From contig CAZTDU010000014.1 in assembly GCA_964612335.1 (NCBI GenBank), forward strand, positions 288 through 64,287: a stretch of 64,000 bases of DNA, written 5' to 3'. How positions within the stretch are numbered: position 1 is the stretch's first letter; each line of letters starts with the position of its first letter. This document shows positions 11,832 to 26,838 of this stretch, piece by piece. A program made the translations under genes and the position numbers. The notes under the pieces are model-generated. The model was not told the DNA's origin. It saw only the letters and a list, made by a program, of their open reading frames with translations, and searched no databases. This DNA comes from an uncultured Enterobacteriaceae bacterium (GTDB taxonomy: Bacteria > Pseudomonadota > Gammaproteobacteria > Burkholderiales > SG8-39).

Positions 11832-12116
11832 ATGATGAACCGCAGTGTTGCCCTCGCCGCGCTTGCCGCCGGCATCCTCGCGGCAGGCCCGGTATCGGCG
11901 CAGGACAAAAAGGCGGACGGCAAGTCCGCGATGGAGAAGTGCTACGGCGTCTCGCTCGCCGGCAAGAACGACTGCGGCGCCGGACCCGGGACCACCTGCG
12001 CCGGCACCTCGAAAGTCGACTACCAGGGCAATGCCTGGAAGAACGTACCCAAGGGAACCTGTACCAGCATCAAGACGCCGAAGGGACAGGGCTCGCTCAA
12101 GCCGATCAAGGGCTGA
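11832..12116 (+). CDS. DUF2282 bufferin precursor peptide (BufA-type)
   Basis: Signal peptide plus [14 protein letters not shown]-x7-CAG...W..VPKGTC four-Cys core; AAGGAG RBS. Confidence 0.9.
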
Positions 12117-12129
12117 GCGGTTCCGGGCG

Positions 12130-12969
12130 ATGGGTGCGGTGCTGTCGGCGGGTGTCGGCCTGAAGCCGGAGCATTTCGCCGCTGCGCTGGCGACGAACGC
12201 CCGCGGCCTGTGGTTCGAGGTGCATGCCGAGAACTACATGGTCGAGGGCGGGCCCCGCCTGCGCTGGCTGGACGCGATCAGGACCCGGCATCCGGTGTCC
12301 GTTCACGGTGTCGGCCTGTCGCTCGCCGCCGATGCCGACCTGGACGCGGCGCACCTTCGCCGCGTTGCTGCCCTCGTGCAGCGCGTCAAGCCGGCGCTCG
12401 TGTCGGAGCACCTCGCCTGGTCGGCCTGGCGCGGCGCCTGTTACCCGGACCTGCTGCCGTTTCCGCGCACCTCGCAATCCCTGGCGCGCGTGGCTGCGAA
12501 CGTCGAGCAACTCCAGGACGCGATCGGCTGCAGCGTCGCGGTGGAGAACCCGTCGCATTACCTGCGCATCGATGCGCATGAGTGGGACGAGATCGACTTC
12601 CTGTCCGAGCTTGCGCGTCGTACCGGATGTGCGCTGCTGCTGGACGTCAACAACGTGTACGTCAGTGCCCGCAACCTGCGGGCGTCGGCGCGGGCCTACA
12701 TCGACGCTTTTCCCGCCGAGCTGGTGGCGGAAATCCACCTGGCCGGGCACAGCGAGGACCCCGCACTGGGCGAGGACCTGCTGGTGGATTCTCACGATGC
12801 CGCGGTGGCGCCCGCGGTCTGGGCGCTCTACGAGCGCCTGGTGGCGCGCATCGGCCCGCGTCCGACCCTGATCGAGCGCGACGGCAATGTCCCGGCGTTC
12901 GCGGATCTGATGGCGGAGCGCGAGCTTGCGCATGGCGTCCTGTGCACGCGGCACGCGAAGGCCGCATGA
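12130..12969 (+). CDS. DUF692 multinuclear non-heme iron oxidative enzyme (MNIO; BufB-type)
   Basis: FEVHAENY, VSEHLAW, ENP, LLLDVNNVYV, EIHLAGH, DSH, LIERD metal-ligand motifs. Confidence 0.93.
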   Translation: MGAVLSAGVGLKPEHFAAALATNARGLWFEVHAENYMVEGGPRLRWLDAIRTRHPVSVHGVGLSLAADADLDAAHLRRVAALVQRVKPALVSEHLAWSAWRGACYPDLLPFPRTSQSLARVAANVEQLQDAIGCSVAVENPSHYLRIDAHEWDEIDFLSELARRTGCALLLDVNNVYVSARNLRASARAYIDAFPAELVAEIHLAGHSEDPALGEDLLVDSHDAAVAPAVWALYERLVARIGPRPTLIERDGNVPAFADLMAERELAHGVLCTRHAKAA

Positions 12970-13751
12970 TGCGCGCGCTGGCGAGTTTCCAGGACGGGTT
13001 CGTGCGTGCCTTGCTGGACCCGGAGGCAGGCGTGGATGACGCCGTCGGCGCGCTTGCGGCGCAGCCGGCGTTCGCGGTCTACCGGAACACGGTAATCAAG
13101 GCTTGCATCGACGCGCTGCAGGCCAACTTCCCGGCGGTGGCGCGACTGGTGGGTGACGAGTGGTTCCGCTCCGCGGCTGCGGCGTACGCGCGCAGCCAGC
13201 CCCCGGCCGTGCCCATGATGAACGCGTACGGCAGCGGGTTCCCCGCCTTCCTCGAGCGCCATTTGCAGACCGACGAGCGCGCGTATCTCCCTGCGGTGGC
13301 GAGGCTGGATCTGCTGTGGACCGAATGCCACGGTGCCGCTGACGCGCCGCCGCTCGCGCAGGCCGCGCTCGCGCAACTGGAACCGCAGGCGCTCGGCGTG
13401 CTGCGCCTGCGGCCGCATCCGGCGACGCGCTGGGCGTGGTTCGCGGACGCGCCGGCGTACACGATCTGGTCCCTGAACCGCGGCGACCCTACGCCTGCGG
13501 CCGCCGCGCCGCAGATCGCCTGGCGCGGCGAGGGAGCCCTGTTTGCGCGGCCGCTGGACGCCGTGGTCTCGCGTGAGATCGGCGAACCGGTTTGCGCGTT
13601 CCTGGATGCGTGTGCCGCAGGCGCATCGCTTGACGACGCCGCGCAAGCCGCGCTTGCCGTCGACCCCGCGGCGGACCTCGGCGGGCTGATGGCGCGGCTG
13701 CTCGAATGCGGCGCCTTCGCCGCGCAAACAAGCAAGGAGGATCTCGCATGA
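12966..13751 (+). CDS. DUF2063 partner protein (BufC/HvfC-type)
   Basis: FAVYRNTV..LQANFPAVARLVGDEWF, YGxxFPAFL, VARLD motifs; ATGA overlap with DUF692. Confidence 0.88.
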   Translation: MMRALASFQDGFVRALLDPEAGVDDAVGALAAQPAFAVYRNTVIKACIDALQANFPAVARLVGDEWFRSAAAAYARSQPPAVPMMNAYGSGFPAFLERHLQTDERAYLPAVARLDLLWTECHGAADAPPLAQAALAQLEPQALGVLRLRPHPATRWAWFADAPAYTIWSLNRGDPTPAAAAPQIAWRGEGALFARPLDAVVSREIGEPVCAFLDACAAGASLDDAAQAALAVDPAADLGGLMARLLECGAFAAQTSKEDLA

Positions 13752-14221
13752 CGAATGCCAGTGACATGTCCGCCCCCCAGCCTGGCGGCTTGCGGGGAAT
13801 GCACAACCGGCTTGCCGACCTGCTTGGCGCCGCGACCGGGCACGCGCTCATCGCGCTGGCTGCGCGCTTCGGCGTTGGCGCGACCTTCTTCTATTCCGGC
13901 CGGACGAAGGTCGACGGTTTCTTTACCGTCAACGACAGCGCCTATTCGCTGTTCCGCGAGGAATACAAGGTCCCGCTGCTGCCGCCGGAGTTCGCGGCGC
14001 ACATGGCCACCTATGCGGAACACCTTCTGCCCGTGCTGCTGTTCGCCGGGCTGCTCACCCGGCTATCGGCGCTCGGGCTGCTCGGCATGACCGCCGTCAT
14101 CCAGGTGTTCGTCTATCCGGACGCCTGGCCGACGCACCTGACGTGGGCGGTGGCGCTGCTCTACCTCGTGGGGCGCGGCGGCGGCCCCGTTTCGCTGGAC
14201 CGCTGGCTCGGCCTGCGCTGA
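13748..14221 (+). CDS. DoxX family membrane protein (BufD-type)
   Basis: FFYSGRTK, LLFAGLLTRLSA, VYPDAWPTH, GGGPVSLD. Confidence 0.9.
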   Translation: MTNASDMSAPQPGGLRGMHNRLADLLGAATGHALIALAARFGVGATFFYSGRTKVDGFFTVNDSAYSLFREEYKVPLLPPEFAAHMATYAEHLLPVLLFAGLLTRLSALGLLGMTAVIQVFVYPDAWPTHLTWAVALLYLVGRGGGPVSLDRWLGLR

Positions 14222-14238
14222 CGCGCGCGGACCAGGAA

Positions 14239-15012
14239 ATGGAGCGGCGGGTTGCCGGGCGGCTGGCCGACGCACTCGACGCCGTGCTTGCGCGCTGGTA
14301 CTCCGCGGACGGACGGAATTGCGACTACGCGGGGCTGGCGCGCTCGGCCGAGCACGCGGCGCTGCGGGAAGCGTCTGCGGCGCTCGATCCGCTGGACCCG
14401 CGCACCCTGGCGATTCCAGGGCCGCTCGCGTTCTGGATCAACGCCTACAACGCCGCCGCACTGCTTGGCGTGCTGGAAGCCGGCGCTCCCGAGAGCGTGC
14501 ACCGCATCGCCGACTACTTCTCCGCTCCTCGCCTGCGGGTCGCGGGCCACGCATACTCGCTCGACGACATCGAGCACGGCCTGCTGCGCGGCAACGCAGC
14601 ACCTTACGGCCGGCTGATGCCGCCGCTGGGTTCTGGCGACCCGCGACTCGCGTTTGCGCCGCGCCTGTGGGACGAGCGGGTGCATTTCGCCCTTCACTGC
14701 GCGAGCCGCTCGGCGCCGGCGCTGCGGGTGTTCCGCGCGGCAACGCTGTCCGCGCAGCTCGAGACGGCGGCATGCACCTGTGTCGAGGCAGAAGTGGAGG
14801 CGCGGCACGCCGAGGGCGATCTGCAGCTTCCCATGATCTTCAAGTGGTACCAGGGCGATTTCGGCGGCCGCCGGGGCGTCATCGCGTTCGTGGTGGCGCG
14901 GCTCGAGGACGCGGACGCCGTGGACTACATCGACAGCAGGGGCGATGCGCTGAAGCTTTCGTACCGCGCATACGACTGGACCTTGAACGCCCCGCCGCAC
15001 GCGCGTGCATGA
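14239..15012 (+). CDS. DUF547 domain-containing protein
   Basis: AFWINAYNA, SLDDIEHGLLR, RVHFALHCASRSAP, IFKWY..DF, YDWTLN. Confidence 0.88.
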   Translation: MERRVAGRLADALDAVLARWYSADGRNCDYAGLARSAEHAALREASAALDPLDPRTLAIPGPLAFWINAYNAAALLGVLEAGAPESVHRIADYFSAPRLRVAGHAYSLDDIEHGLLRGNAAPYGRLMPPLGSGDPRLAFAPRLWDERVHFALHCASRSAPALRVFRAATLSAQLETAACTCVEAEVEARHAEGDLQLPMIFKWYQGDFGGRRGVIAFVVARLEDADAVDYIDSRGDALKLSYRAYDWTLNAPPHARA

Positions 15013-15022
15013 GGAGATACCC

Positions 15023-15709
15023 GTGACACAACTACGCCTGAGCGGTATTCGTGCCTGCGTGTTCGATGCGTACGGCACTTTGTTCGACGTCAACAGCGCC
15101 GCAGCGCAAGCCAAGGACGCGCTCGGCGAGAAATGGCAGCCGCTCGCGGACCTTTGGCGGGTGAAGCAGCTGCAATACACCTGGCTGCGGGGATTGATGG
15201 GCAGGCACGCGGATTTCTGGCAAGTCACCGGCGACGCCCTCGATTACGCCATGGGGAGCCTGGGGTTCGACGATGCGCCGCTGCGCGAGCGCTTGATGGG
15301 CTTGTATCTCACGCTGAATGCCTATCCGGAAGTGAAGGACACCCTCAAGCAGCTGAAGGCGGGTGGCCTGAAACTCGCGATCCTCTCCAACGGCGCGCCG
15401 AACATGCTGGCGGCAGCGGTCGCGAACTCGGGCATCGCGGAGTTGCTGGACGCCGTGCTGTCGGTGGAGGAGGTCCAGGTGTTCAAGCCCCATCCATCGG
15501 TTTACGGTCTGGCGACTGATCGGCTCGCGCTGGAAAGGGAACGGATCTGCTTTCTGTCATCGAATGCCTGGGACGCGCACGCCGCGAAGGCGTTCGGTTC
15601 TCGCGTGATCTGGTGCAACCGCTTCGGCCAGGTGCCGGAGCGGATTCCCGAGCGGCCTGACGGCGAGATTGGCACACTGAGTGCGTTGCCCGCAATACTC
15701 GGAATATGA
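15023..15709 (+). CDS. Haloacid dehalogenase type II (L-2-haloacid dehalogenase-like)
   Basis: FDAYGTLFDV, WRxKQLQYTW, LSNG, FKPHP, SSNAWD motifs; GAGGAG RBS before GTG. Confidence 0.88.
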   Translation: MTQLRLSGIRACVFDAYGTLFDVNSAAAQAKDALGEKWQPLADLWRVKQLQYTWLRGLMGRHADFWQVTGDALDYAMGSLGFDDAPLRERLMGLYLTLNAYPEVKDTLKQLKAGGLKLAILSNGAPNMLAAAVANSGIAELLDAVLSVEEVQVFKPHPSVYGLATDRLALERERICFLSSNAWDAHAAKAFGSRVIWCNRFGQVPERIPERPDGEIGTLSALPAILGI

Positions 15710-15852
15710 CTCTCTCATTCGTTATTGGTCCGCTCGTACTTGCGATTGTAGGCGTGATCTTCGGCGCCGGCCTGATCGCATTTCGCCTGCACCGGGTCCG
15801 CGGCTCAGGAAAGGCTGATTTGAAGGTAACGAGAGACATTTGCGGCCAGTGA
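15706..15852 (+). CDS. Small single-pass membrane protein (48 aa), below the ORF-track cut-off
   Basis: MTLSFVIGPLVLAIVGVIFGAGLIAFRLHRVRGSGKADLKVTRDICGQ; ATGA overlap with the HAD stop. Confidence 0.45.
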   Translation: MTLSFVIGPLVLAIVGVIFGAGLIAFRLHRVRGSGKADLKVTRDICGQ

Positions 15853-15900
15853 AAGCTGCGTGGTCTCTGTCTGTCGGCAGCCGATCGGTTCGCGCTGTCG

Positions 15901-16296
15901 TCACCCCGTCAGCGTAGCGATGATCGGGCAGGCGACTTTGCCGCGGCGCACGTCGCAGCGCGCGACCAGTTCACTGAGAACGTCCCGCATTCGCGCCAGG
16001 TCCGCCAGACGCGCTTCCACCAGCGCGAGTTTCTCCGCGGCAAGCGATCGTGCCGTGCCGCAGCTTTGCGGGTCTTCAAGGGCCAACAGGCGCTGTATCT
16101 CGGCAAGCGAAAAGCCGAGCCGTTGCGCCCGTTTGACGAAGCGCAGGCGGGATACGAACTCAACCCCGTAGCGCCGCATGCCGCCGGCTGGTCTCGTCGG
16201 CTCCGCCAGAAGGCCCAGGCGCTGGTAGAAGCGGATGGCTTCCACGGTGACGCCGGCCGCTTCGGCGACACGGCCGATGGTCATGGTTGCGCTCAT
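15901..16296 (-). CDS. merR: Hg(II)-responsive MerR regulator
   Basis: [23 protein letters not shown]; three Hg-binding Cys ([16 protein letters not shown]); divergent from merT; start could be 16308 or 16284. Confidence 0.9.
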
Positions 16297-16334
16297 GGCA
16301 CGACTCATCCTTGAAAAGGAAAGGAACAGTAAGC

Positions 16335-16366
16335 TTGACTCCGTACATGACTACGGACCTTAGAGT
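16335..16366 (+). promoter_or_regulatory. mer operator/promoter 1 (merTPA)
   Basis: TTGACT-CCGTACATGACTACGGACCT-TAGAGT: near-Tn21/Tn501 dyad with a 20-bp spacer. Confidence 0.9.
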
Positions 16367-16396
16367 ACACCCGGTCGGATTGCTTGCGGAGACGAT

Positions 16397-16804
16397 ATGG
16401 ACGTGGTCAGGACGCACTCGACTGTCAAGCTGGACGTGCCCGCCACGGCAGGTTCAGACAGGGTCAGCAAGGCAACGCTTGCGGGCGGGCTGATCGCGGC
16501 GATCATCGCTTCGGCGTGCTGTCTCGGGCCGTTGGTACTCGTCATGGTGGGGGTCAGTGGAGCCTGGATCTCGAACCTTACGCTGCTTGAGCCGTACCGT
16601 CCGGTGTCTATCGGGGTCGCGCTGGTTTTCATGGGGCTGGCATGGCGCCGTATCTACCGCGCGCCCGCAGCCGCATCATGCGATCCCGGAACACTGTGCG
16701 CGCTGCCGCAGACCAATCGCGCCTACCGGCTCATATTCTGGGTGGTGTCAGCGCTGGTGCTGCTTGCCGTTGGATTCCCGTACCTCGCGCCGCTTTTTTA
16801 CTAG
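16397..16804 (+). CDS. merT: Mercuric ion transport protein MerT
   Basis: ASACCLGPLVL, WISNLTLLEPYRP, CDPGTLC cytoplasmic Cys pair. Confidence 0.93.
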   Translation: MDVVRTHSTVKLDVPATAGSDRVSKATLAGGLIAAIIASACCLGPLVLVMVGVSGAWISNLTLLEPYRPVSIGVALVFMGLAWRRIYRAPAAASCDPGTLCALPQTNRAYRLIFWVVSALVLLAVGFPYLAPLFY

Positions 16805-16814
16805 GAGATAGCTG

Positions 16815-18612
<1,798 letters not shown>

Positions 18613-18644
18613 TCGTGCGCCGGCGTCCTGCCATAGCCCCGGAC

Positions 18645-18676
18645 TTGACTCCGTACCATAGTACGGAGCAAAGACT
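18645..18676 (+). promoter_or_regulatory. mer-type operator/promoter 2
   Basis: TTGACT-CCGTACCATAGTACGGAGCA-AAGACT; perfect dyad TCCGTAC-N4-GTACGGA. Confidence 0.85.
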
Positions 18677-18692
18677 TGTCGCCCAGCCCGAT

Positions 18693-19382
18693 ATGTCTCT
18701 CGGTACCGCTCAGAAGCACCTCACCATTGGCGAACTGGCCCAGCGGGCCGACGTCGGTGTCGAGACGATCCGCTTCTACGAGCGCAAGGGCCTGATCGCG
18801 CAGCCGGTGCGTCCCGCGGCAGGCTTTCGGGCCTACCCGCAGGACGTCCTTGAGCGACTGGGGTTCGTGCATGAAGCGAAGCAGCTTGGCTTCACTTTGA
18901 AGGAGATCCGCGATCTGCTGAGGTTGCGCGACAGCCCTGAAGCGGACGCCGCCGCCGTGCGCGGCCGCGCCGCCGCGAAGCTTGCGCAGATCGAGGACCG
19001 GATCATCCGGTTACAGCGCATGCGCGTTACTTTGCAGAATCTGCTTTCCCAATGCCCCGGTAGCGGTGAGTTGAGCAATTGTTCCATCGTCAAGGCACTG
19101 TCCGTCTCGACTACGCAGCCGGACGGGGGCCGCGCACATGGCACAAAGAAGGAATTTCCAATGAAAACCATCGATCTGATGATCCAGGGCATGCACTGCG
19201 ACGGTTGTGCCAAGACCATAGAGGCGCTGCTAACGACGGAGCTGGGCGTCAAAGCCGCCACCGTTTCTTACGGCAGCGGCAGCGGCAGCGCCAGGGTCCT
19301 GTTCGACCCGGCAAGCATCGATATCCCACGCCTTGTCAAAGCGGTGGAGCGCGCAGGCTATCGAGTAACCGGGCCGCGCTAG
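18693..19382 (+). CDS. MerR-family regulator fused to C-terminal HMA (CopZ-like) domain
   Basis: TIGELA..VETIRFYERKGL HTH, QCPGSGELSNC loop, then MKTIDLMIQGMHCDGC HMA from 19161. Confidence 0.85.
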   Translation: MSLGTAQKHLTIGELAQRADVGVETIRFYERKGLIAQPVRPAAGFRAYPQDVLERLGFVHEAKQLGFTLKEIRDLLRLRDSPEADAAAVRGRAAAKLAQIEDRIIRLQRMRVTLQNLLSQCPGSGELSNCSIVKALSVSTTQPDGGRAHGTKKEFPMKTIDLMIQGMHCDGCAKTIEALLTTELGVKAATVSYGSGSGSARVLFDPASIDIPRLVKAVERAGYRVTGPR

Positions 19383-20053
19383 TGCCTGGCGGCGATATCG
19401 CGGCGTTGGTCCTGTGGCCAATTGCGTTCGGCCTGCTGGGTTTTATCGAGCCCTGCGCGATCGGCAGTACGCTGCTGTTCATCAAGACCACCGAGGGACA
19501 GGCACCCGCGGTCAGGATCGGACAGGTCTTCGCGTTCACGCTCAGCCGCGCTCTTTTCATCGGCTTGCTGGGCGCGTCGGCGGCGTTCATCGGATCGATG
19601 TTTCTCGGTGTGCAGAAGGCGGTCTGGATACTGATGGGTGCCTTGTACGTCGCCATCGGTTTTCTTTACGTCACCGGGCGGATAGGATCGCTGATGGTAT
19701 CGATCGGTCCGCGCCTCGCATCCATTTCCAGCCCCCGCGGCTCGATCTTTCTTGGGGTAGCGTTCGGTCTCAACATCCCGGCCTGCGCGGGCCCGATCCT
19801 GCTCGCGCTGCTTGCCGCTTCCGCGGCGGGAGGCGCAAGCGGTGAGACCGTGGCGCGAGGGTTCATCTCGCTCGCGCTGTTTGGATTCGCCCTGTCGCTG
19901 CCGCTCGTGGCGGCGGTGCTGTTCGAACGCGCGCGCCGCACGCTCGACTGGCTCGCCGGTCTCACGCGGCGAATGCCCCTGTGGACCGGCGTGCTGTTCG
20001 TCTTGCTGGGTGCCTGGTCGATCTGGTTCGGCCTTTTTGTCTCCGTCAGGTAA
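19382..20053 (+). CDS. CcdA/DsbD-like transmembrane thiol-redox protein
   Basis: About 6 TM helices with IEPCAIG and IPACAGP Cys motifs; GTG overlaps the upstream TAG. Confidence 0.7.
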   Translation: MPGGDIAALVLWPIAFGLLGFIEPCAIGSTLLFIKTTEGQAPAVRIGQVFAFTLSRALFIGLLGASAAFIGSMFLGVQKAVWILMGALYVAIGFLYVTGRIGSLMVSIGPRLASISSPRGSIFLGVAFGLNIPACAGPILLALLAASAAGGASGETVARGFISLALFGFALSLPLVAAVLFERARRTLDWLAGLTRRMPLWTGVLFVLLGAWSIWFGLFVSVR

Positions 20054-20078
20054 CCGTCGGGCGCGCGCTAGACAGAGC

Positions 20079-20110
20079 TTGACACCGGGCCAAGGTACGG
20101 CGCCTACGCT
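20079..20110 (+). promoter_or_regulatory. mer-type operator/promoter 3 (upstream of P1B ATPase)
   Basis: TTGACA-CCGGGCCAAGGTACGGCGCC-TACGCT; right half-site GTACGG intact, left half degenerate. Confidence 0.7.
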
Positions 20111-20146
20111 GAAGTCCGGAATTGTCCCTTTGACCGGAGATCGACC

Positions 20147-22585
20147 ATGACTGCCGATTTCGACCTCGCCGTTCCACTATGGACCCATGAACCGGCAAGT
20201 CGCCCGGATCGCGCCCGCATCCGCGCCCGTATCGCCGGAATGCATTGCTCGCTGTGCACGGGGACCATCGAGAAGGCGCTTGGCCGTCACGAAGGCGTGG
20301 ACGCGGTCACCGTGAACCTGACCCATGAACAGGCGCTGGTCGAGTACGACCCGCGCAGAGTGCAGCCGCAAGCGCTGCTCTCAACCCTGCGCCAGATGGG
20401 TTACTCAATTTCCGACCCGCGCAAGCTGAAGCCGTTCGAAGAGGAGGAGCGTCAACTGGTGCAAGAGGGTCGCCGCTTTCTCTGGGCCACCGTTTTCAGT
20501 CTGGGTTCGCTGACGCTCATCGCGCGCCCCGGGGATTTCTGGTACGCCGTGCTGGAGGCCTTCGTGGCCCTGGGCCTGCTCGCGCTCGTCTTTCTGGTGT
20601 TGCGCGCCCAGGGGTTGTGGAACGCCGTGGCTGGAACGTCAGGCGCGCTGGCGCTGGTAGTGGGCCTTTCCTGGCTCAAACAGGCGGGGACGCTGGAGGG
20701 CTGGGATGCGTGGATAGCCGCAGTGTTGGCCGTCTCAGTAGTGTTTTTCCTGGCGCGCCACATTCTTGCGATCGCGTGGCAGTCCCTGCGGCGCGGCATC
20801 ATCAACCAGCATGTGCTCCTCGAAGCCGCGGCCTTCGCGGGGCTGGCCGGCGGCGTCTACGGCCTTTCGGCGGGCGGACCGGACTTTCCCACGGCACCGT
20901 TCTTCTGCGTGGCTGTGATGGTCTGCAACTATCACATCTTTTCGGAATGGCTGTCCCTGATCGTCAAAACGCGCAGTTCGCAGGCGGTGCGGCGGCTCCT
21001 GGCGTTGCAGCCGGAGACCGCTTGCGTGCTGCGCGATGGACGCGAAACGGAGCGCCGCATCGAGGACGTTGCCGTGGGCGACCTGGTACGCATTCGGCCG
21101 GGCGAACGCATTCCCGTGGACGGCTCGGTCGCCGAAGGCCATTCGGCCGTGGATCAATCACTGGTCACCGGTGAGCCGTTGCCGGTTGAACGCGTCGCGG
21201 GCGACGACGTCATCGGGGGATCGATGAACGGGCTGGGCACGCTTCTGGTACGGGTGACGGCGGTCGGGGAGTCGAGCTTTCTGCACCGTGTGGTGCGCGA
21301 AGTCGAGGATGCGCGCGCCCTGAAACCCGGCATGCTGCATCTCGTCGATCGGGTGTTGAAGGTATATGCGCCCGCGGTGCTCACGCTGGCGCTGCTTGCC
21401 ATGCTGGGCTGGCTGATTCTGCCAATGCTTGCCGGCACTGATTCCGATATGGAGCGGGCGGTGTTCGCGGGGTTGACGGTACTGGTGATGGGTTATCCGT
21501 GCGCCCTCGGCATCTCCGCGCCATTGTCCATCGTTCGCGGCGCTGGAGAAGCGGCGGAGCGCGGGATACTGATGCGCACGGGCGAAGCCTTCCAGGGTTT
21601 CCGACTGGCCACCCATGTGGTTTTTGACAAGACCGGCACGCTCACCGAGGGCAAGCCCAGACTGCGCGAACTCGAAGCGGTCAGCGGAACGGAGTCCGAT
21701 TTGCTCGGATTGGCCGCGGCGGCGGAGTCCGCGTCGGAACACCCCTTGGCCAAGGCGGTGATGAATGCTGCCCTGGAGCAGGGCGTCACACTGCCTGAGC
21801 TTGAGAATTTTGAAGCGGTCCCCGGACGCGGCGTACGAACCACATCGGCAGGAAGCGAAATCCTGGTCGGTAACCCTCGCTTCCTCGAGGAAAATGGCGT
21901 TTCGTTCGATCCATTGCGCGTCCGTACCGAAACTCTCGAGAAAGCGGGACGCACGGTGGTCATGGTTGCGCGCGCGAAGCGCGTACTGGGTCTGCTCGCT
22001 TTCGGGGACGCGCTCCGCCCGGGAGCGGCGGGTACCGTGTCAGCGTTGCGCCGTGCAGGTGTGCGCACAGTGTTGATGAGCGGCGACAATGCCGCGGCCT
22101 CCCGGAGGATCGCCGCTGAGGCGGGTATAGACGACGTCCACGGCGGGCTTTTGCCGCAGGACAAGGCGGCGTTGATCCGTACCTTGCAAAGCAACGGCAA
22201 CGTCGCCATGGTCGGTGACGGAATCAACGACGCTCCGGCGCTGATGCAGGCCAACGTGGGCATCGCGATGGGCGGCGGCACCGATATCGCCATCGATTCG
22301 GCGGACATCATCATTTTGAACAACCGCCTGGAAGCGTTGCTCGATGCCCGCGAGATCAGCCGCTGGAGCTACCGCAAGATGGTGCAGAACGTGTGCCTCG
22401 CGGTGACGTTCAATGGAATCGGTGTGCCGCTCGCCGCAACGGGGCTGGTCTATCCGATCTGGGCGATGGCGGCGATGGCCATCAGCGTGACGGCAATCTT
22501 CATCAATTCGCTGCGTGGCCGGCCATGGCTGTTTTTCGACGCGGTGTTGAGCGTCGGGCGCGTACCCGGGCCCGGGGTCGCCTGA
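20147..22585 (+). CDS. Heavy-metal-translocating P1B-type ATPase with non-canonical YPC motif
   Basis: GMHCSLC HMA, TGEP, GYPCALG, DKTGTLT, SEHP, GDGINDAP. Confidence 0.92.
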   Translation: MTADFDLAVPLWTHEPASRPDRARIRARIAGMHCSLCTGTIEKALGRHEGVDAVTVNLTHEQALVEYDPRRVQPQALLSTLRQMGYSISDPRKLKPFEEEERQLVQEGRRFLWATVFSLGSLTLIARPGDFWYAVLEAFVALGLLALVFLVLRAQGLWNAVAGTSGALALVVGLSWLKQAGTLEGWDAWIAAVLAVSVVFFLARHILAIAWQSLRRGIINQHVLLEAAAFAGLAGGVYGLSAGGPDFPTAPFFCVAVMVCNYHIFSEWLSLIVKTRSSQAVRRLLALQPETACVLRDGRETERRIEDVAVGDLVRIRPGERIPVDGSVAEGHSAVDQSLVTGEPLPVERVAGDDVIGGSMNGLGTLLVRVTAVGESSFLHRVVREVEDARALKPGMLHLVDRVLKVYAPAVLTLALLAMLGWLILPMLAGTDSDMERAVFAGLTVLVMGYPCALGISAPLSIVRGAGEAAERGILMRTGEAFQGFRLATHVVFDKTGTLTEGKPRLRELEAVSGTESDLLGLAAAAESASEHPLAKAVMNAALEQGVTLPELENFEAVPGRGVRTTSAGSEILVGNPRFLEENGVSFDPLRVRTETLEKAGRTVVMVARAKRVLGLLAFGDALRPGAAGTVSALRRAGVRTVLMSGDNAAASRRIAAEAGIDDVHGGLLPQDKAALIRTLQSNGNVAMVGDGINDAPALMQANVGIAMGGGTDIAIDSADIIILNNRLEALLDAREISRWSYRKMVQNVCLAVTFNGIGVPLAATGLVYPIWAMAAMAISVTAIFINSLRGRPWLFFDAVLSVGRVPGPGVA

Positions 22586-22750
22586 AACGGCGAATGGCCG
22601 GCCCGTCGAAGATGCGCTTGACGCATGGCCGCCGCGCCGCGTGGAGACCCGGTGTGGGCGGAGAGCTGACTTCGTCTGATTGACGCGGTTGAACACCGTC
22701 GTTGTAAGGATTTCCATGAATCCATGGTCCTGTGCTGAGGAGGAATCACC

Positions 22751-23722
22751 ATGAGTCTGGCTGTACCCGTTCCGGGGCGAATCGCAGCAAGCGCCATCGG
22801 CCTGGCGTTGATGTTCGTCGCGACCGCGGTTCTCGCAGAGCCGATCCGCAACGGCTTCGACCTGGCCGGCGCATTGGTTCCGGCCGAGGAGATCCTGCAG
22901 GGTGGACCGCCGAAGGACGGCATCCCCGCTATCGACAAGCCCGAGTTCGTCGCGGCGGGCAAGGCCCGTGGCCTGCGCGGCAAGGACATGGTGCTCGGCA
23001 TCGCGCGCAACGGCATCGCCAAGGCCTACCCGATCCTGATTCTGAATTGGCATGAAGTGGTGAACGATCGGTTCGGCGCGGAGCCGATCGTGGTGACCTT
23101 CTGCCCGCTGTGCGGGTCGGGCGTTGCGTTCGAGGCGACCGCCGGCGGGCGCGCGCTACAGTTCGGCGTATCGGGGCTGCTGTACAACAGCGACGTGCTC
23201 CTGTACGACCGCGCGACGAGTTCGCTCTGGTCGCAGATCCGCGCGCAGGCGGTCACCGGCCCGTTGAAGGGCGCGCGCCTGGTCCAGGTGCCGATGCTGC
23301 ATATGACCTGGGACGACTGGCGCCGGCGGCATCCGCAGACGCTGGTGTTGAGCGAGCGCACCGGATTCGGGCGCGACTACAGCCGCGATCCCTACGACGG
23401 CTACGACAAGACCGAGGCGCTGATGTTTCCCGCGCGTTTCCGTGCCGAGGGATTCCATCCGAAGGAGCGCGTGCTCGGCGTCCTCGTCGGCGGCAAGGCG
23501 AAAGCGTATCCATTCTCGGAACTCGCCCGGGCGGCGGGCCCCGTTTCGGACATCGTCGGCGGCCAGCGCGTGATCGTCCGCTTCCTGCCGCAAGGGCCGG
23601 CCGCCGAGGCGCAGGACGCGAGCGGCCGCACGCTGGCGACGACGACCCTGTTCTGGTTCGCCTGGGCGGCATTCCATCCCGGGACGGAAATCTTCCGCGC
23701 GCAGAAGCCCACGCCGCGCTGA
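22751..23722 (+). CDS. DUF3179 domain secreted protein (CxxC)
   Basis: Signal peptide; GGPPKDGIPAID, HEVVND, FCPLCGSG, SGLLYNSD..YDRATSSLWSQ. Confidence 0.85.
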   Translation: MSLAVPVPGRIAASAIGLALMFVATAVLAEPIRNGFDLAGALVPAEEILQGGPPKDGIPAIDKPEFVAAGKARGLRGKDMVLGIARNGIAKAYPILILNWHEVVNDRFGAEPIVVTFCPLCGSGVAFEATAGGRALQFGVSGLLYNSDVLLYDRATSSLWSQIRAQAVTGPLKGARLVQVPMLHMTWDDWRRRHPQTLVLSERTGFGRDYSRDPYDGYDKTEALMFPARFRAEGFHPKERVLGVLVGGKAKAYPFSELARAAGPVSDIVGGQRVIVRFLPQGPAAEAQDASGRTLATTTLFWFAWAAFHPGTEIFRAQKPTPR

Positions 23723-23737
23723 GTCCGGCACCTCGGA

Positions 23738-23887
23738 GTGCGGGACCGCCATCGAGCGGATGACATCGTCCAGGAAGCATCGTTGCGCGAACATCGCCCG
23801 CATTGCGCGTCATGCGCACAGGCCCTGCGGGAGTAGCAAGAACTGGAGGCCGGTCTGAGGCGCGCATTCGAGGTGACGATCCCGGCG
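23738..23887 (+). pseudogene. Relic of an ECF sigma factor / zinc anti-sigma pair collapsed by deletion
   Basis: One frame reads VRDRHRADDIVQEASLR (sigma region 2-like) then EHRPHCASCAQALRE*QELEAGLRRAFEVTIPA (HxxxCxxC anti-sigma-like, premature TAG). Confidence 0.55.
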
Positions 23888-24044
23888 CGCTGCGCTCGCA
23901 GGAGAGCGCCATGGCACCGCAGCATCGGCTACGTGCAAACGCGTAGTAGGTATTTGTTCGTAGCAACTCGTGGTTGGCTGGTTCGTCCAATTGGCATGGA
24001 CGGTGCATATCGCACCGAACAGCGAACAACCAAGGAGACACACC

Positions 24045-25617: not shown

Positions 25618-26838
25618 ATGAAAAGCATTTCGATACGCATCCCGGGTTCGCAGGGCCATGAACTCGCCGCATTGCTCGATTCCCCGCCCGAGGCGCCGCG
25701 CGCATATGCGCTCTTCGCGCACTGCTTCACCTGTTCCAAGGATTCGAAGGCCGCGGCGTACATCGCGCGCGCGCTCGCCGCGCACGGCATCGCCACGCTG
25801 CGCTTCGACTTCACCGGCCTCGGCATGAGCGAGGGTGAATTCGCCGAGACCGGCTTCTCGTCCAACGTCGAGGACCTGGTCGCCGCCGCCGACTGGCTGC
25901 GCGCCAACCACGCCGCGCCGCAGCTCCTCGTCGGCCACAGCCTGGGCGGCGCGGCGGTGCTGGCGGCCGCGGCGCGCATGCCCGAGGCGCGCGCGGTGGC
26001 GACCATCGCCGCACCCTTCGAGCCCGCGCATGTCGCAAGGCTGGTCGAGCCGGGCCGCGCCGAGATCGAGGCGCGGGGCGAGGCCGAGGTAAACATCGGC
26101 GGCAGGCCGTTTCGCGTGCGCCAGGCCTTCCTCGACGACCTGCAGTCGCAGCGCCCGGCCGAGGCGATCCGTGCGCTCGGCAAGGCGCTGATGGTGTTCC
26201 ATTCGCCCCGCGACGCCATGGTCGACATAGACAACGCAGCCCAGATCTTCATGGCGGCCAGGCACCCGAAGAGCTTCGTGTCGCTGGACGATGCCGACCA
26301 CCTGCTGACCAGCCAGGCGCATGCGGCGTACGTCGCCGACGTGCTCGCCGCGTGGGCCTCGCGTTACCTCGATCCGCTGCCGGCGAGCGACGCGCCGGTG
26401 CATGGCGTGCACGTCGCCGAGACCGGCGAGGGGCGCTTTGCGCAACTCATACTCGCCGGCAGGCACCGGTTGCGCGCCGACGAGCCGGTGGCCATCGGCG
26501 GTGCCGATTCCGGGCCTTCGCCCTACGAACTGCTGCTTGCCGCGCTCGGTGCCTGCACGGCGATGACCATGCGCATGTACGCGGCGCAGAAGAAATGGCC
26601 GCTCGCGCGCGTCAGCGTGGACCTGCGGCACGAGAAGATCCACGCCACCGACTGCGCCGAATGCGAAACGAAGGAAGGCCGCATCGACCGCATCCAGCGC
26701 GAGATCCGCATCGAGGGCGCGCTGGACGACGCCCAGCGCGCGCGCCTGATGGAGATTGCGGACCGCTGCCCGGTGCACCGCACGCTGCATGCGGAGGTGC
26801 TGGTGGTCTCCAGGCTCGCCGGAGACGCGGTCGTGTAA
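25618..26838 (+). CDS. Bifunctional alpha/beta hydrolase - OsmC family protein
   Basis: [15 protein letters not shown]; C-terminal [20 protein letters not shown]...CPVHRTL. Confidence 0.9.

What the first reader, a model, noticed from the sequence alone, without database searches (positions are those of the whole stretch)
20147..22585. P1B ATPase with a rewired transport site (YPC / FN / MAISV)
Seen: the metal-binding helix motif is GYPCALG instead of CPC. The next-to-last TM reads VTFNG where Cu+ ATPases have YN, and the last TM reads MAISV where they have MxxSS. The catalytic motifs DKTGT, HP and GDGIND and an N-terminal GMHCSLC are intact. Known: CPC, YN and MxxxS form the Cu+ site of P1B-1 pumps. 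Inference: three ligands changed together, which suggests a different substrate (possibly Hg, Ag/Au or a thiol-metal complex) rather than decay.
Basis: partly seen in the sequence, partly recalled or inferred. Interest (0 to 1): 0.65.

Follow-up and report, generated by a model that had tools for sequence, protein, structure and literature searches.

The report
Mercury-operon metal pump with rebuilt ion site
This gene encodes an intact metal-pumping ATPase from a conserved, almost unstudied branch of the copper pumps whose ion path has been rebuilt; here it is wired into a mercury-resistance operon, so it may pump mercury or another soft divalent metal, which has never been shown for such a pump.

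Summary
ORF 20147-22585 (+) encodes an 812-aa P1B ATPase with intact catalytic motifs. It reads YPC, FN and MxxSV where Cu(I) pumps read CPC, YN and MxxSS.

The changes are not strain-specific decay. They are fixed in 118 of 120 close homologs and kept down to 44-51 % identity in Actinobacteria, Gemmatimonadota, Ignavibacteriota and Archaea. All YPC sequences form one clade (support 100) nested inside the Cu(I) pumps.

The rewiring goes further than reported:
- the entry Met/Asp became Gln/His;
- both pathway Glu are lost;
- an invariant His, a second Met and, in the proteobacterial group, two new Cys appear.

In the window the gene ends an operon, merT-merP-merA-MerR/HMA-CcdA-like protein-ATPase, and has its own mer-operator-like promoter. 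Regulators beside YPC pumps carry the "+2 ion" Cys (23 of 25). Those beside ordinary pumps carry the CueR Ser (10 of 11). True mer genes flank 13 of 45 YPC loci against 1 of 34 controls.

The family is not wholly unknown. Sulfolobus solfataricus CopB is a deep member, and a synthetic YPC pump failed to rescue E. coli ΔcopA.

The substrate remains unproven; Hg(II) is my best guess (about 0.45).

The parts
15901..16308 (-). merR, a true Hg(II)-type MerR, divergent from merT
   Evidence: NCBIfam TIGR02051 MerR equivalog scores 151.0 bits against a cut-off of 150.85. Cys at the C82 column and a C-x8-C loop.
16335..16366 (+). Pmer promoter and operator, TTGACT-CCGTACATGACTACGGACC-TTAGAGT (19-nt spacer, dyad CCGTAC-N4-CTACGG)
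   Evidence: Read directly and located. The resemblance to the Tn501/Tn21 merO is from memory.
16397..16804 (+). merT
   Evidence: Pfam MerT, 1.3e-43. NCBIfam PRK13751 scores 164.9 bits against a cut-off of 150.
16815..17111 (+). merP (GMNCSAC)
   Evidence: TIGR02052 MerP scores 114 bits against a cut-off of 92.55.
17113..18612 (+). merA core without the NmerA domain
   Evidence: TIGR02053 scores 562.8 bits against a cut-off of 454. PRK13748 is matched from profile position 86 onward.
18609..19382 (+). MerR-family regulator fused to a C-terminal HMA domain (GMHCDGC). Its start overlaps the merA stop (ATGA).
   Evidence: Pfam MerR, MerR-DNA-bind and HMA. The best NCBIfam model is MerR at 124.9 bits, below its cut-off. 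It has Ala where relatives have the C82/C79-column Cys. The overlap is read.
19382..20053 (+). 223-aa six-helix-type membrane protein with two invariant membrane Cys (EPC, IPACAGP), CcdA-like. Its GTG start overlaps the upstream TAG stop.
   Evidence: No Pfam hit, even at E 10. Invariant columns are listed. The AF2 model has pLDDT 72.9. The best PDB fold match is CcdA 5VKV, probability 0.96, TM 0.42. Some sources name relatives CcdA.
20078..20110 (+). MerR-type promoter and operator directly upstream of the ATPase: CTTGACA-CCGGGCCAAGGTACGGCGCC-TACGCT
   Evidence: The element is conserved at the same place in 12 loci, e.g. L028 CTTGACTCCGTAGCGTGGTACGGCTGCTAGCGT.
20147..22585 (+). YPC-type P1B ATPase, 812 aa (the finding)
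20237..20257 (+). N-terminal HMA metal site GMHCSLC. Ser35 and His60 are clade-specific.
20804..20812 (+). N-Q-H on the MB platform, replacing the N-M-D of Cu(I) pumps
   Evidence: Met is present in 100 % and Asp in 73 % of CPC pumps. Gln/His are present in 90 % of YPC pumps. His222 is 100 % conserved in the crown group.
20906..20935 (+). M1/M2 stretch CVAVMVCNYH. Cys254 sits on the column of the 'YFE' Glu. It also carries Met258, Cys260 and the invariant His263.
   Evidence: Conservation in the crown group: C254 93 %, M258 100 %, C260 99 %, H263 100 %. His263 is 100 % conserved in the whole YPC clade against 13 % in CPC pumps.
21491..21511 (+). M4 motif GYPCALG
21626..21640 (+). DKTGT phosphorylation motif
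22403..22417 (+). M5 motif VTFNG (FN instead of YN)
22460..22489 (+). M6 motif WAMAAMAISV. Met774 is new, Met777 and Ser780 are kept, and Val781 replaces Ser.
22751..23722 (+). DUF3179 protein with a signal-peptide-like N-terminus and a CPLC motif. Its link to the pump is loose.
   Evidence: Pfam DUF3179, 1.1e-89. A 68 % homolog lies 5.4 kb downstream of the pump in L001, and a 97 % copy in L003.

Best explanation
SHOWN. The gene encodes a functional-looking P1B ATPase of a distinct, ancient subfamily, called here the YPC type. This subfamily arose once inside the Cu(I) pumps (P1B-1). Its whole ion path was rebuilt:
- one Cys is left on M4 (Y-P-C);
- Tyr moves from M5 to M4 (YN becomes FN);
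- a second Met appears on M6;
- an invariant His appears on M2;
- Gln/His replace the entry Met/Asp;
- both pathway Glu are lost;
- in the proteobacterial crown group there are two extra Cys on M1/M2.

In this window the gene is the last gene of a mer-type transcription unit, merT-merP-merA-MerR/HMA-CcdA-like protein-ATPase. It also has its own mer-operator-like promoter.

INFERRED. The pump exports a soft divalent cation, most likely Hg(II), from the cytoplasm. The proposed steps are:
1. The metal is handed over as a thiolate complex from the HMA domains (GMHCxxC) of the regulator fusion and of the pump.
2. It passes a low-coordination Cys/Met/His relay. This relay binds less tightly than a CPC bis-thiolate site, so Hg(II) can be released.
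3. It is given up on the periplasmic side, where thiols kept reduced by the CcdA-like partner could receive it.

The pump would then act as a reductase-independent overflow branch of mercury resistance.
For: 1. Intact pump. Full-length matches to P1B models and to solved CopA structures.

2. Conservation. YPC, FN and MxxSV are fixed in close homologs and kept at 44-51 % identity across phyla.

3. Single origin. All YPC rows form one clade, SH-aLRT 100, nested in CPC pumps.

4. Extra clade-specific positions: Q221, H222, H263, M774, V781, R390, and C254/C260.

5. Operon structure. ATGA and TAGTG start/stop overlaps join merA, the regulator and the membrane protein. A conserved TTGAC-N19/20 promoter with a CCGTA-N4-GTACGG-like dyad sits in front of the pump in 12 loci. 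It resembles the window's own Pmer.

6. Regulators within 900 bp. Beside YPC pumps 23 of 25 carry Cys at the CueR-S77/ZntR-C79 column, with C-x8-C or C-x9-C loops. Beside CPC pumps of the same order 10 of 11 carry Ser, with C-x7-C. Fisher p = 1e-7.

7. mer enrichment. True merT/merP/merA lie within 10 kb of 13 of 45 YPC loci, against 1 of 34 matched CPC loci (p = 0.003). There are at least 8 different arrangements, including merB-merA in L002.

8. Massilia. Three genomes have merR-merT-merP next to the pump but no merA anywhere.

9. The genome already holds canonical CPC/YN/MxxSS pumps.

10. A synthetic YPC pump did not rescue E. coli ΔcopA. It raised Cu accumulation instead (PMC11082258).
Against: - No transport or induction experiment exists for any bacterial member.
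- About 70 % of YPC loci show no mer gene within 10 kb. Many lie in mixed metal islands with RND pumps, multicopper oxidase or other P1B pumps, which could inflate the association.
- A deep clade member, S. solfataricus CopB (YPC confirmed), has been reported as a low-affinity Cu/Ag resistance factor. This is from memory of Voellmecke et al. 2012 and was not read here.
- The window's own MerR-HMA regulator has Ala instead of the third Cys, as do L004 and L005. It may therefore no longer sense Hg(II) the MerR way.
- MerT/MerP import followed by ATP-driven export looks like a futile cycle.
- A second class of YPC-linked regulators (CC ... C-x4-H-x4-C) scores best against ZntR models.
- No Hg(II)-specific P1B pump is known.
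Confidence: 0.45

Rival explanations
1. It is a low-affinity Cu(I)/Ag(I) exporter, a back-up CopA as reported for S. solfataricus CopB. The site changes only lower affinity or alter the partner chaperone.
For: The clade is nested in P1B-1. The protein passes the Cu subfamily model TIGR01511 (448.7 bits against a cut-off of 397). It keeps the M4 Cys, M5 Asn, M6 Met and Ser. S. solfataricus CopB carries YPC, NEH and His263 and belongs to the clade. PMC4541151 calls it a verified Cu-resistance pump.
Against: Regulators beside YPC pumps follow the +2-ion pattern, not the CueR pattern. The 100 %-conserved entry Met and both pathway Glu of Cu(I) pumps are gone. The genome already has two canonical CopA pumps plus a FixI-like pump. 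The synthetic YPC pump CopAL6 lowered, rather than restored, Cu tolerance of E. coli ΔcopA. The operon fusion is to merTPA, not to cop or cus genes.
Confidence: 0.25
2. It exports another soft divalent metal, Cd(II), Pb(II) or Zn(II). The mer neighbourhood would reflect only shared metal islands.
For: The regulators carry the +2-type Cys. One class (CC plus C-x4-H-x4-C) scores best against ZntR models, at 122.9 bits. Many loci sit among other metal-resistance genes.
Against: The pump lacks the P1B-2 signatures, namely CPC, the M5 Lys and the M6 Asp. It is not related to ZntA or CadA in the tree. The class-A operators resemble merO. The window's regulator scores best against MerR. The fusion is specifically to mer genes.
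Confidence: 0.12
3. It is not a detoxifying exporter. It would be a delivery or uptake-like device that loads a soft metal onto periplasmic or membrane thiol proteins, or that raises the cellular metal content.
For: CopAL6, a dual-HMA YPC pump, increased Cu accumulation and sensitivity in E. coli. The proteobacterial group is constantly paired with a CcdA-like two-Cys membrane protein. merT and merP occur next to the pump in genomes without merA.
Against: All well-characterised P1B pumps move metal out of the cytoplasm (established knowledge). Stress-type MerR promoters fit detoxification better than cofactor supply. The CopAL6 phenotype may be a heterologous-expression artefact.
Confidence: 0.1
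4. It is a decaying or inactive copper-pump paralog.
For: Three canonical Cu(I) ligands are missing.
Against: The frame is open and all catalytic motifs are intact. The altered residues are conserved across phyla and in thousands of homologs.
Confidence: 0.02

Closest known systems
P1B-1 Cu(I)/Ag(I) ATPases (CopA of A. fulgidus, L. pneumophila and E. coli; ATP7A/B)
   Same: Same architecture: HMA, MA/MB helices, six core helices, and A, P and N domains. All catalytic motifs are shared. The best solved-structure matches are AfCopA at E 6e-134 and LpCopA at 5e-116. The YPC clade is nested within them. M4 Pro-Cys, M5 Asn, M6 Met and Ser are kept.
   Different: The first Cys of CPC becomes Tyr. 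The Tyr of YN becomes Phe. The second Ser of MxxSS becomes Val. The entry NMD becomes NQH. Both pathway Glu are lost. There is a new invariant His on M2, a new Met on M6, and extra Cys in the crown group. The regulators are +2-type MerR proteins rather than CueR.
Sulfolobus (Saccharolobus) solfataricus CopB (SSO2896; catalytic domain PDB 2IYE, 2YJ3-6)
   Same: It is a member of the same YPC clade. It carries AYPCAIG, LNEHVL, the M2 His and the M6 pattern AM..M..S. P0289 matches 2IYE at 539 bits. Its 59 % relative L105 falls inside the clade, which has support 100.
   Different: It is only about 30-35 % identical to the window protein and sits on a long branch. It keeps YN. It lacks the crown-group Cys254/Cys260, the C-terminal tail, the CcdA-like partner and MerR-type regulation. 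It has been reported (from memory) as a minor Cu/Ag resistance factor.
CopAL6, a synthetic metagenomic 'CopA-like' pump (PMC11082258)
   Same: The paper reports a YPC motif in the sixth helix and HMA domains at both ends. Several deep YPC members have the same layout (L029, L035, L038, L103).
   Different: It was tested only for Cu in E. coli ΔcopA, where it lowered tolerance and raised Cu content.
Classical mer operon (Tn501/Tn21 merR-merTP(C)AD(E))
   Same: The window has merR, merO-like Pmer, merT, merP and merA in the canonical order. A MerR-family gene follows merA where merD usually sits.
   Different: No described mer operon includes a P-type ATPase or a CcdA-like protein. I found none in the papers searched. 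MerA here lacks NmerA.
P1B-2 Zn/Cd/Pb/(Hg) ATPases (ZntA, CadA)
   Same: They are heavy-metal P1B pumps under +2-type MerR regulators (ZntR, CadR, PbrR).
   Different: They form a different clade; ZntA served as the outgroup. The window pump lacks CPC, the M5 Lys and the M6 Asp.

Membership tests
P1B-type heavy-metal ATPase (TIGR01525) | DKTGT, TGE, HP and GDGxNDxP catalytic motifs, and a family HMM score above the cut-off | tested here: met
   All motifs are present. TIGR01525 scores 547.3 bits against a cut-off of 346.25.
P1B-type heavy-metal ATPase (TIGR01525) | An x-P-C (CPx-type) motif in M4 and an N-terminal HMA domain | tested here: met
   GYPCALG aligns on the CPC of AfCopA. Pfam HMA scores 1.6e-14.
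P1B-1 Cu(I) pumps (CopA type) | CPC in M4 | tested here: not met
   The motif is YPC. Cys is 100 % conserved in the 67 CPC comparators and Tyr is 100 % conserved in the YPC clade.
P1B-1 Cu(I) pumps (CopA type) | YN in M5 and MxxSS in M6 | tested here: not met
   The motifs are FN and MAISV. Comparators carry Tyr in 100 % and Ser in 99 %.
P1B-1 Cu(I) pumps (CopA type) | Entry-platform Met (N-M-D) and the two M1/M2 Glu | tested here: not met
   The platform reads N-Q-H. Cys254 and Ser stand on the Glu columns. The assignment of these residues to entry and exit sites is from memory of the LpCopA structures.
P1B-1 Cu(I) pumps (CopA type) | Phylogenetic position and subfamily HMM | tested here: met
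   The clade is nested among CPC pumps. Its sister is a CPC group, with support 100. TIGR01511 scores 448.7 bits against a cut-off of 397.
P1B-1 Cu(I) pumps (CopA type) | Cu(I)-stimulated transport | not testable with these tools
   The only indirect data are that CopAL6 gave no rescue and that SsCopB has a reported weak Cu role.
P1B-2 Zn/Cd/Pb pumps | CPC plus M5 Lys and M6 Asp; clade with ZntA/CadA | tested here: not met
   There is no Lys or Asp at those helices. The protein is separated from E. coli ZntA and CadA-like rows in the tree.
YPC-type clade (includes S. solfataricus CopB) | Y-P-C in M4, His on the MB platform (N-x-H), invariant His on M2, a second Met on M6, and monophyly | tested here: met
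   All features are present in the window protein. The 31 YPC rows form one clade with SH-aLRT 100.
mer (mercury resistance) operon component | Co-transcription with merTPA under MerR/merO | tested here: inconclusive
   The genes lie on the same strand. Overlapping stops and starts run through the CcdA-like gene. A 93-bp gap then holds the pump's own MerR-type promoter. No transcript data were examined.
mer (mercury resistance) operon component | Demonstrated role in Hg(II) handling | not testable with these tools
   Only association is available: 13 of 45 YPC loci against 1 of 34 controls have mer genes within 10 kb.

The most novel reading that the evidence does not exclude
YPC-type pumps would be the first dedicated Hg(II)-translocating P-type ATPases. 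Together with a MerR-HMA sensor/chaperone and a CcdA-like thiol membrane protein, they would form a reductase-independent efflux branch of mercury resistance. This branch can stand alone with merT and merP, as in Massilia genomes that lack merA, or be bolted onto merTPA, as here. The single-Cys/Met/His relay would be the adaptation that lets a protein release Hg(II).
Probability: 0.35. Interest if true: 0.8.

Novelty: new variant of a known kind. Interest (0 to 1): 0.62.

Why it matters
Metal selectivity of P1B pumps is predicted from a handful of transmembrane residues. Annotation pipelines call this protein a copper or generic cation pump.

A large, ancient clade that has replaced most of those residues is a natural experiment in how ion selectivity and release are encoded. 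It occurs in roughly 5 % of sampled genomes of this order, with thousands of homologs in metagenomes.

If the substrate is Hg(II), textbook mercury resistance (uptake plus reduction) gains an efflux arm. That would matter for predicting mercury cycling from metagenomes and for bioremediation chassis.

The family has culturable carriers (Massilia, Noviherbaspirillum, Jiangella). One deep member already has solved soluble-domain structures. The question is therefore directly testable.

Tried and rejected
- **CcdA-like protein, sequence searches.** Pfam and NCBIfam scans gave nothing, even at E 10. Only the fold search pointed, weakly, to CcdA.
- **Neighbour clustering.** All-against-all clustering of stop-to-stop ORFs around 43 loci was swamped by shadow ORFs of high-GC DNA and was abandoned.
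- **Generic promoter scan.** It found no promoter, because MerR-type promoters have 19-20-nt spacers. The promoters were found by reading and aligning the intergenic DNA.
- **'MerA' near distant member P0122.** It turned out to be a mycothione reductase. The 30 %-identity 'MerA' hits near two control pumps are likewise other flavoprotein reductases.
- **Supplement of PMC4541151.** It held no Sulfolobus accession.
- **Archaeal YPC representatives against PDB.** Searching P0135 and P0137 did not bring up 2IYE. The link to SsCopB came only through a motif scan of 401 Thermoproteota genomes.
- **Literature.** Searches for a mercury P-type ATPase or for a description of YPC pumps found only two papers that mention YPC in passing.
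- **Readings rejected.** I considered and rejected sequencing error or pseudogene, and a P1B-2, -3 or -4 assignment.
Full report
**1. The observation**

The ORF at 20147-22585 (+) is open and encodes 812 residues. Pfam finds HMA (28-86), E1-E2_ATPase (287-472) and the HAD hydrolase domain (490-702). NCBIfam places the protein in the heavy-metal P1B subfamily: TIGR01525 scores 547 bits against a cut-off of 346.

- GMHCSLC at 31-37
- GYPCALG at 449-455
- DKTGT at 494-498
- SEHP at 530-533
- GDGINDAP at 690-697
- VTFNG at 753-757
- MAISV at 777-781

The HMMER alignment to A. fulgidus CopA (PDB 3J09, E 6e-134) puts Tyr450 on the first Cys of CPC. It puts Phe755 on the Tyr of YN and Val781 on the second Ser of MxxSS. 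The Pro-Cys, the Asn, the Met and the first Ser are retained. From memory, these AfCopA residues are C380, C382, Y682, N683, M711, S714 and S715.

**2. Conservation, not decay**

A search of 5.8 billion clustered proteins returned thousands of hits. Among the 120 best (74-100 % identity), 118 have YPC, 117 have FN, all have MxxSV and 116 have GMHCSLC.

Loci from GTDB species representatives show the same GYPCALG, FNG and PIWAMAAMxxSV at 44-51 % identity. The organisms are Jiangella (Actinomycetota), Gemmatimonadota, Melioribacteraceae and a Marsarchaeota archaeon. Some of these proteins carry a second, C-terminal HMA domain.

An exhaustive phmmer search of 1.84 billion 50 %-identity representatives found about 20 YPC clusters among the top 150 hits. 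After these, ordinary CPC pumps follow at 35-43 % identity.

**3. Phylogeny**

The first tree used 108 P1B sequences, with E. coli ZntA as outgroup and E. coli CopA and the genome's own paralogs included. All YPC sequences fall in one clade with SH-aLRT 100. That clade is nested among CPC/YN/MxxSS pumps, and its sister is a CPC group, also at 100.

A second tree added two archaeal YPC sequences found by a motif scan. The single clade held: 31 rows, one change of state, support 100.

In the deepest branches FN and SV are not yet fixed. P0131 and the Sulfolobus type keep YN. YPC is therefore the founding change, and the others followed.

**4. The rewiring is much wider than three residues**

I compared 29 YPC with 67 CPC sequences column by column. 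Numbering is that of the window protein.

| Position | YPC clade | CPC pumps |
|---|---|---|
| 221 / 222 (N-x-x platform) | Gln / His | Met in 100 %, Asp in 73 % |
| Glu of the M1 'YFE' | lost | present |
| Glu of the M2 'LE.rAk' | lost | present |
| 263 | His in 100 % | His in 13 % |
| 449 / 450 | Gly / Tyr | Ala / Cys |
| 460 | Leu | Thr |
| 755 | Phe | Tyr |
| 774 | Met (new) | Met in 0 % |
| 781 | Val | Ser |
| 390 | Arg | Gln |
| HMA domain | Ser35 and His60 | not these residues |

In the proteobacterial crown group (n = 120) the M1/M2 stretch reads C254-VAV-M258-V-C260-NY-H263. Conservation there is 93, 100, 99 and 100 %. Cys254 stands exactly on the column of the 'YFE' Glu.

From memory of the L. 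pneumophila CopA structures, the replaced Met and the two Glu are the entry (M148, E205) and exit (E189) residues. The net result is a path lined by one M4 thiolate, two M6 thioethers, two imidazoles, a phenol and, in the crown group, two more thiolates. It carries no carboxylates.

**5. Context in the window**

The gene order is as follows:
1. merR on the minus strand, 15901-16308. It reaches the curated MerR equivalog cut-off.
2. A canonical Pmer/merO at 16335-16366.
3. merT, merP and merA. The merA gene lacks NmerA.
4. A MerR-family gene fused to an HMA domain. Its ATG overlaps the merA stop (ATGA).
5. A 223-aa membrane protein. Its GTG overlaps the preceding TAG.
6. A 93-bp gap.
7. The ATPase.

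The gap holds CTTGACA-N20-TACGCT (20078-20110). The same element is conserved at the same place in 12 loci. Its inner dyad is CCGTA(g/c)-N4-GTACGG-like, for example L028 TTGACTCCGTAGCGTGGTACGGCTGCTAGCGT. That is close to the window's own merO, TTGACTCCGTACATGACTACGGACC.

The membrane protein has no Pfam match. It has two invariant membrane Cys (F-x-EPC and IPACAxP). Its AlphaFold model has pLDDT 72.9 and finds the electron transporter CcdA (5VKV) as best PDB fold, with probability 0.96 and TM 0.42. Some databases call its relatives CcdA.

G+C drops to 0.63-0.66 across 14-24 kb, against 0.69-0.74 around it. This suggests an acquired island.

**6. Context elsewhere**

The module [MerR-HMA, or MerR plus a small HMA protein] - CcdA-like protein - YPC pump recurs in about 20 of 35 proteobacterial loci. 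Other layouts are pump - MerR-HMA - MerP-like protein, and a divergent MerR gene. Distant members keep MerR plus HMA plus pump.

True mer genes lie within 10 kb in 13 of about 45 distinct YPC loci. At least eight arrangements occur:
- merTPA fused upstream (window, L004)
- merTP(F)A - HMA (L001)
- pump - MerR - thioredoxin - DsbD - merR-T-P-B-A (L002)
- convergent merAPT (L025)
- merA 7 kb away (L028, L063)
- merR-T-P only (Massilia, L019, L021, L027)

As a matched control I took 34 CPC pumps from an even sample of 151 genomes of the same order. Only one has merT and merP nearby. Fisher p is 0.003, or 0.02 if only independent arrangements are counted.

In that sample 7 of 151 genomes carry a YPC pump. 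All of them also carry CPC pumps. The window's own genome has two canonical CopA-type pumps and a FixI-like one.

Three Massilia genomes have merR-merT-merP beside the pump, and the merR is a true MerR at 158 bits. They have no merA anywhere in the genome.

**7. Regulators**

I aligned every MerR-family ORF within 900 bp of a pump with E. coli CueR and ZntR and with the window's MerR. Fisher p for the Cys versus Ser contrast is 1e-7.

| Regulators beside | n | Residue at the CueR-S77 / ZntR-C79 column | Loop between the two C-terminal Cys |
|---|---|---|---|
| YPC pumps | 25 | Cys 23, Ala 2 | C-x8-C in 15, C-x9-C in 8 |
| CPC pumps | 11 | Ser 10, Arg 1 | C-x7-C in 10 |

From memory, this column discriminates +1 from +2 ions (Changela et al. 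2003). The C-x8-C loop is what the window's MerR has. The YPC pumps are therefore switched by divalent-type sensors.

One sub-class is MerR-like in loop, operator and best HMM. The other has CC at the column and a C-x4-H-x4-C loop, and scores best against ZntR.

The window's own regulator and its nearest relatives (L004, L005) are the Ala exceptions, having changed TDC to ADA/TDA. In this lineage control may have passed to the true MerR upstream, with the fusion protein acting mainly as an HMA carrier or a MerD-like co-regulator. That is inference.

**8. What is already known**

Full-text searches found no description of a mercury P-type ATPase in mer operons and no classification of YPC pumps. 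Two papers mention YPC.

PMC11082258 synthesised a metagenomic 'CopAL6' with YPC and HMA domains at both ends. In E. coli ΔcopA it lowered Cu tolerance and gave the highest Cu accumulation.

PMC4541151 remarks that a S. solfataricus copper ATPase uses YPC. I verified this in steps:
1. A GYPCAxG scan of 401 Thermoproteota genomes hit three genomes.
2. One of them, L105, has the S. solfataricus CopB catalytic domain (PDB 2IYE) as its best domain match, at 256 bits.
3. Its 59 % homolog P0289 is named Saccharolobus solfataricus. It matches 2IYE over the whole 263 residues at 539 bits.
4. P0289 reads AYPCAIG, LNEHVL, SLHLSAGW, TYNGIGIP and AMIIMILSL.

SsCopB is thus a deep member of this clade. From memory (Voellmecke et al. 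2012), its deletion matters only at very high copper, and it contributes to silver tolerance. This is compatible either with a weak Cu/Ag pump or with a pump whose real substrate was not tested.

**9. Mechanism and odds**

Shown: an intact, selected pump of a distinct clade; a rebuilt soft-ligand, carboxylate-free path; +2-type MerR control; and a physical and statistical link to mer genes.

Inferred: the pump exports a soft divalent cation, most likely Hg(II), received from GMHCxxC HMA domains. It passes the metal along a low-coordination relay. A single M4 thiolate plus thioethers and imidazoles would bind Hg(II) less irreversibly than a CPC pair.

I put this at about 0.45. The rivals are a low-affinity Cu/Ag pump (0.25), a Cd/Pb/Zn pump (0.12), a delivery or accumulation device (0.10) and decay (0.02).

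The main weaknesses are:
- no experiment exists;
- 70 % of loci lack mer neighbours;
- mixed metal islands are a confounder;
- import by MerT/P followed by export looks futile;
- the SsCopB and CopAL6 data point toward copper handling of some sort.

**10. Novelty**

The kind of protein (P1B ATPase) is known, and one archaeal member has been studied. What is unrecognised is the clade itself, the extent of its pathway rewiring, its regulators and its mer linkage. From memory of the P1B-1 to -7 scheme of Smith et al. 2014, none of those groups has YPC.

Earlier notes of this scan had reached the 'mercury-linked YPC pump' reading independently. I re-tested the enrichment and the regulator claim with my own controls. 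I added the SsCopB link, the crown-group Cys pair, the conserved internal promoter and the Ala exception in this window.

Noticed in passing
window 11845-14221: Upstream of the mer genes lie an MbnB/TglH/ChrH-family (DUF692) gene, a DUF2063 gene and a DoxX gene in a row. From memory, this trio resembles the gold-induced gig cluster of Cupriavidus metallidurans. DUF547 and a HAD hydrolase follow.
   Followed up: partly
window 17113-18612: MerA lacks the N-terminal NmerA HMA domain; PRK13748 is matched only from profile position 86. It does keep a short N-terminal TCENC motif. HMA domains are instead supplied by MerP, by the MerR-HMA fusion and by the pump.
   Followed up: partly
window 18609-19382: This is a MerR-family regulator fused to an HMA domain, placed after merA where merD usually sits. 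In this lineage the Cys at the MerR-C82 column is Ala, while 23 of 25 relatives keep Cys.
   Followed up: partly
window 22751-23722: A DUF3179 protein has a signal-peptide-like N-terminus and a CPLC motif. Relatives lie a few kb from the pump in L001, L003 and L018. Papers mention DUF3179 only as a selenoprotein family.
   Followed up: partly
window 25618-26838: A 406-aa fusion joins an alpha/beta hydrolase to a C-terminal OsmC-like domain.
   Followed up: no
window 14000-24000: G+C falls to 0.63-0.66, against 0.69-0.74 in the flanks. This fits a horizontally acquired metal island.
   Followed up: no
L013 7060-12427 and L015 7061-12427 (Massilia): merP and merT are divergent from a true merR, next to a second MerR-family gene and the YPC pump. 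These genomes have no merA above the family cut-off. This is a reductase-less mer arrangement.
   Followed up: partly
L002 10519-15490: Downstream of a YPC pump lie MerR, a thioredoxin-like gene and a DsbD_TM gene, followed by merR-merT-merP-merB-merA on the same strand. Organomercury lyase is therefore also found linked to the pump.
   Followed up: no
L057 8930-10852: In an actinobacterial-type YPC locus the pump is followed by a CsoR-family repressor and an ArsP_1/YHS permease. It is flanked by mycothione reductase, glutaredoxin and AhpC genes.
   Followed up: no
window protein residues 787-805 (nt 22505-22561): A conserved C-terminal tail, NSLRGRPxLFFDA(I/V)LSVGR, follows M6 in the proteobacterial crown group. 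It is absent from CopA and from deep YPC members.
   Followed up: no
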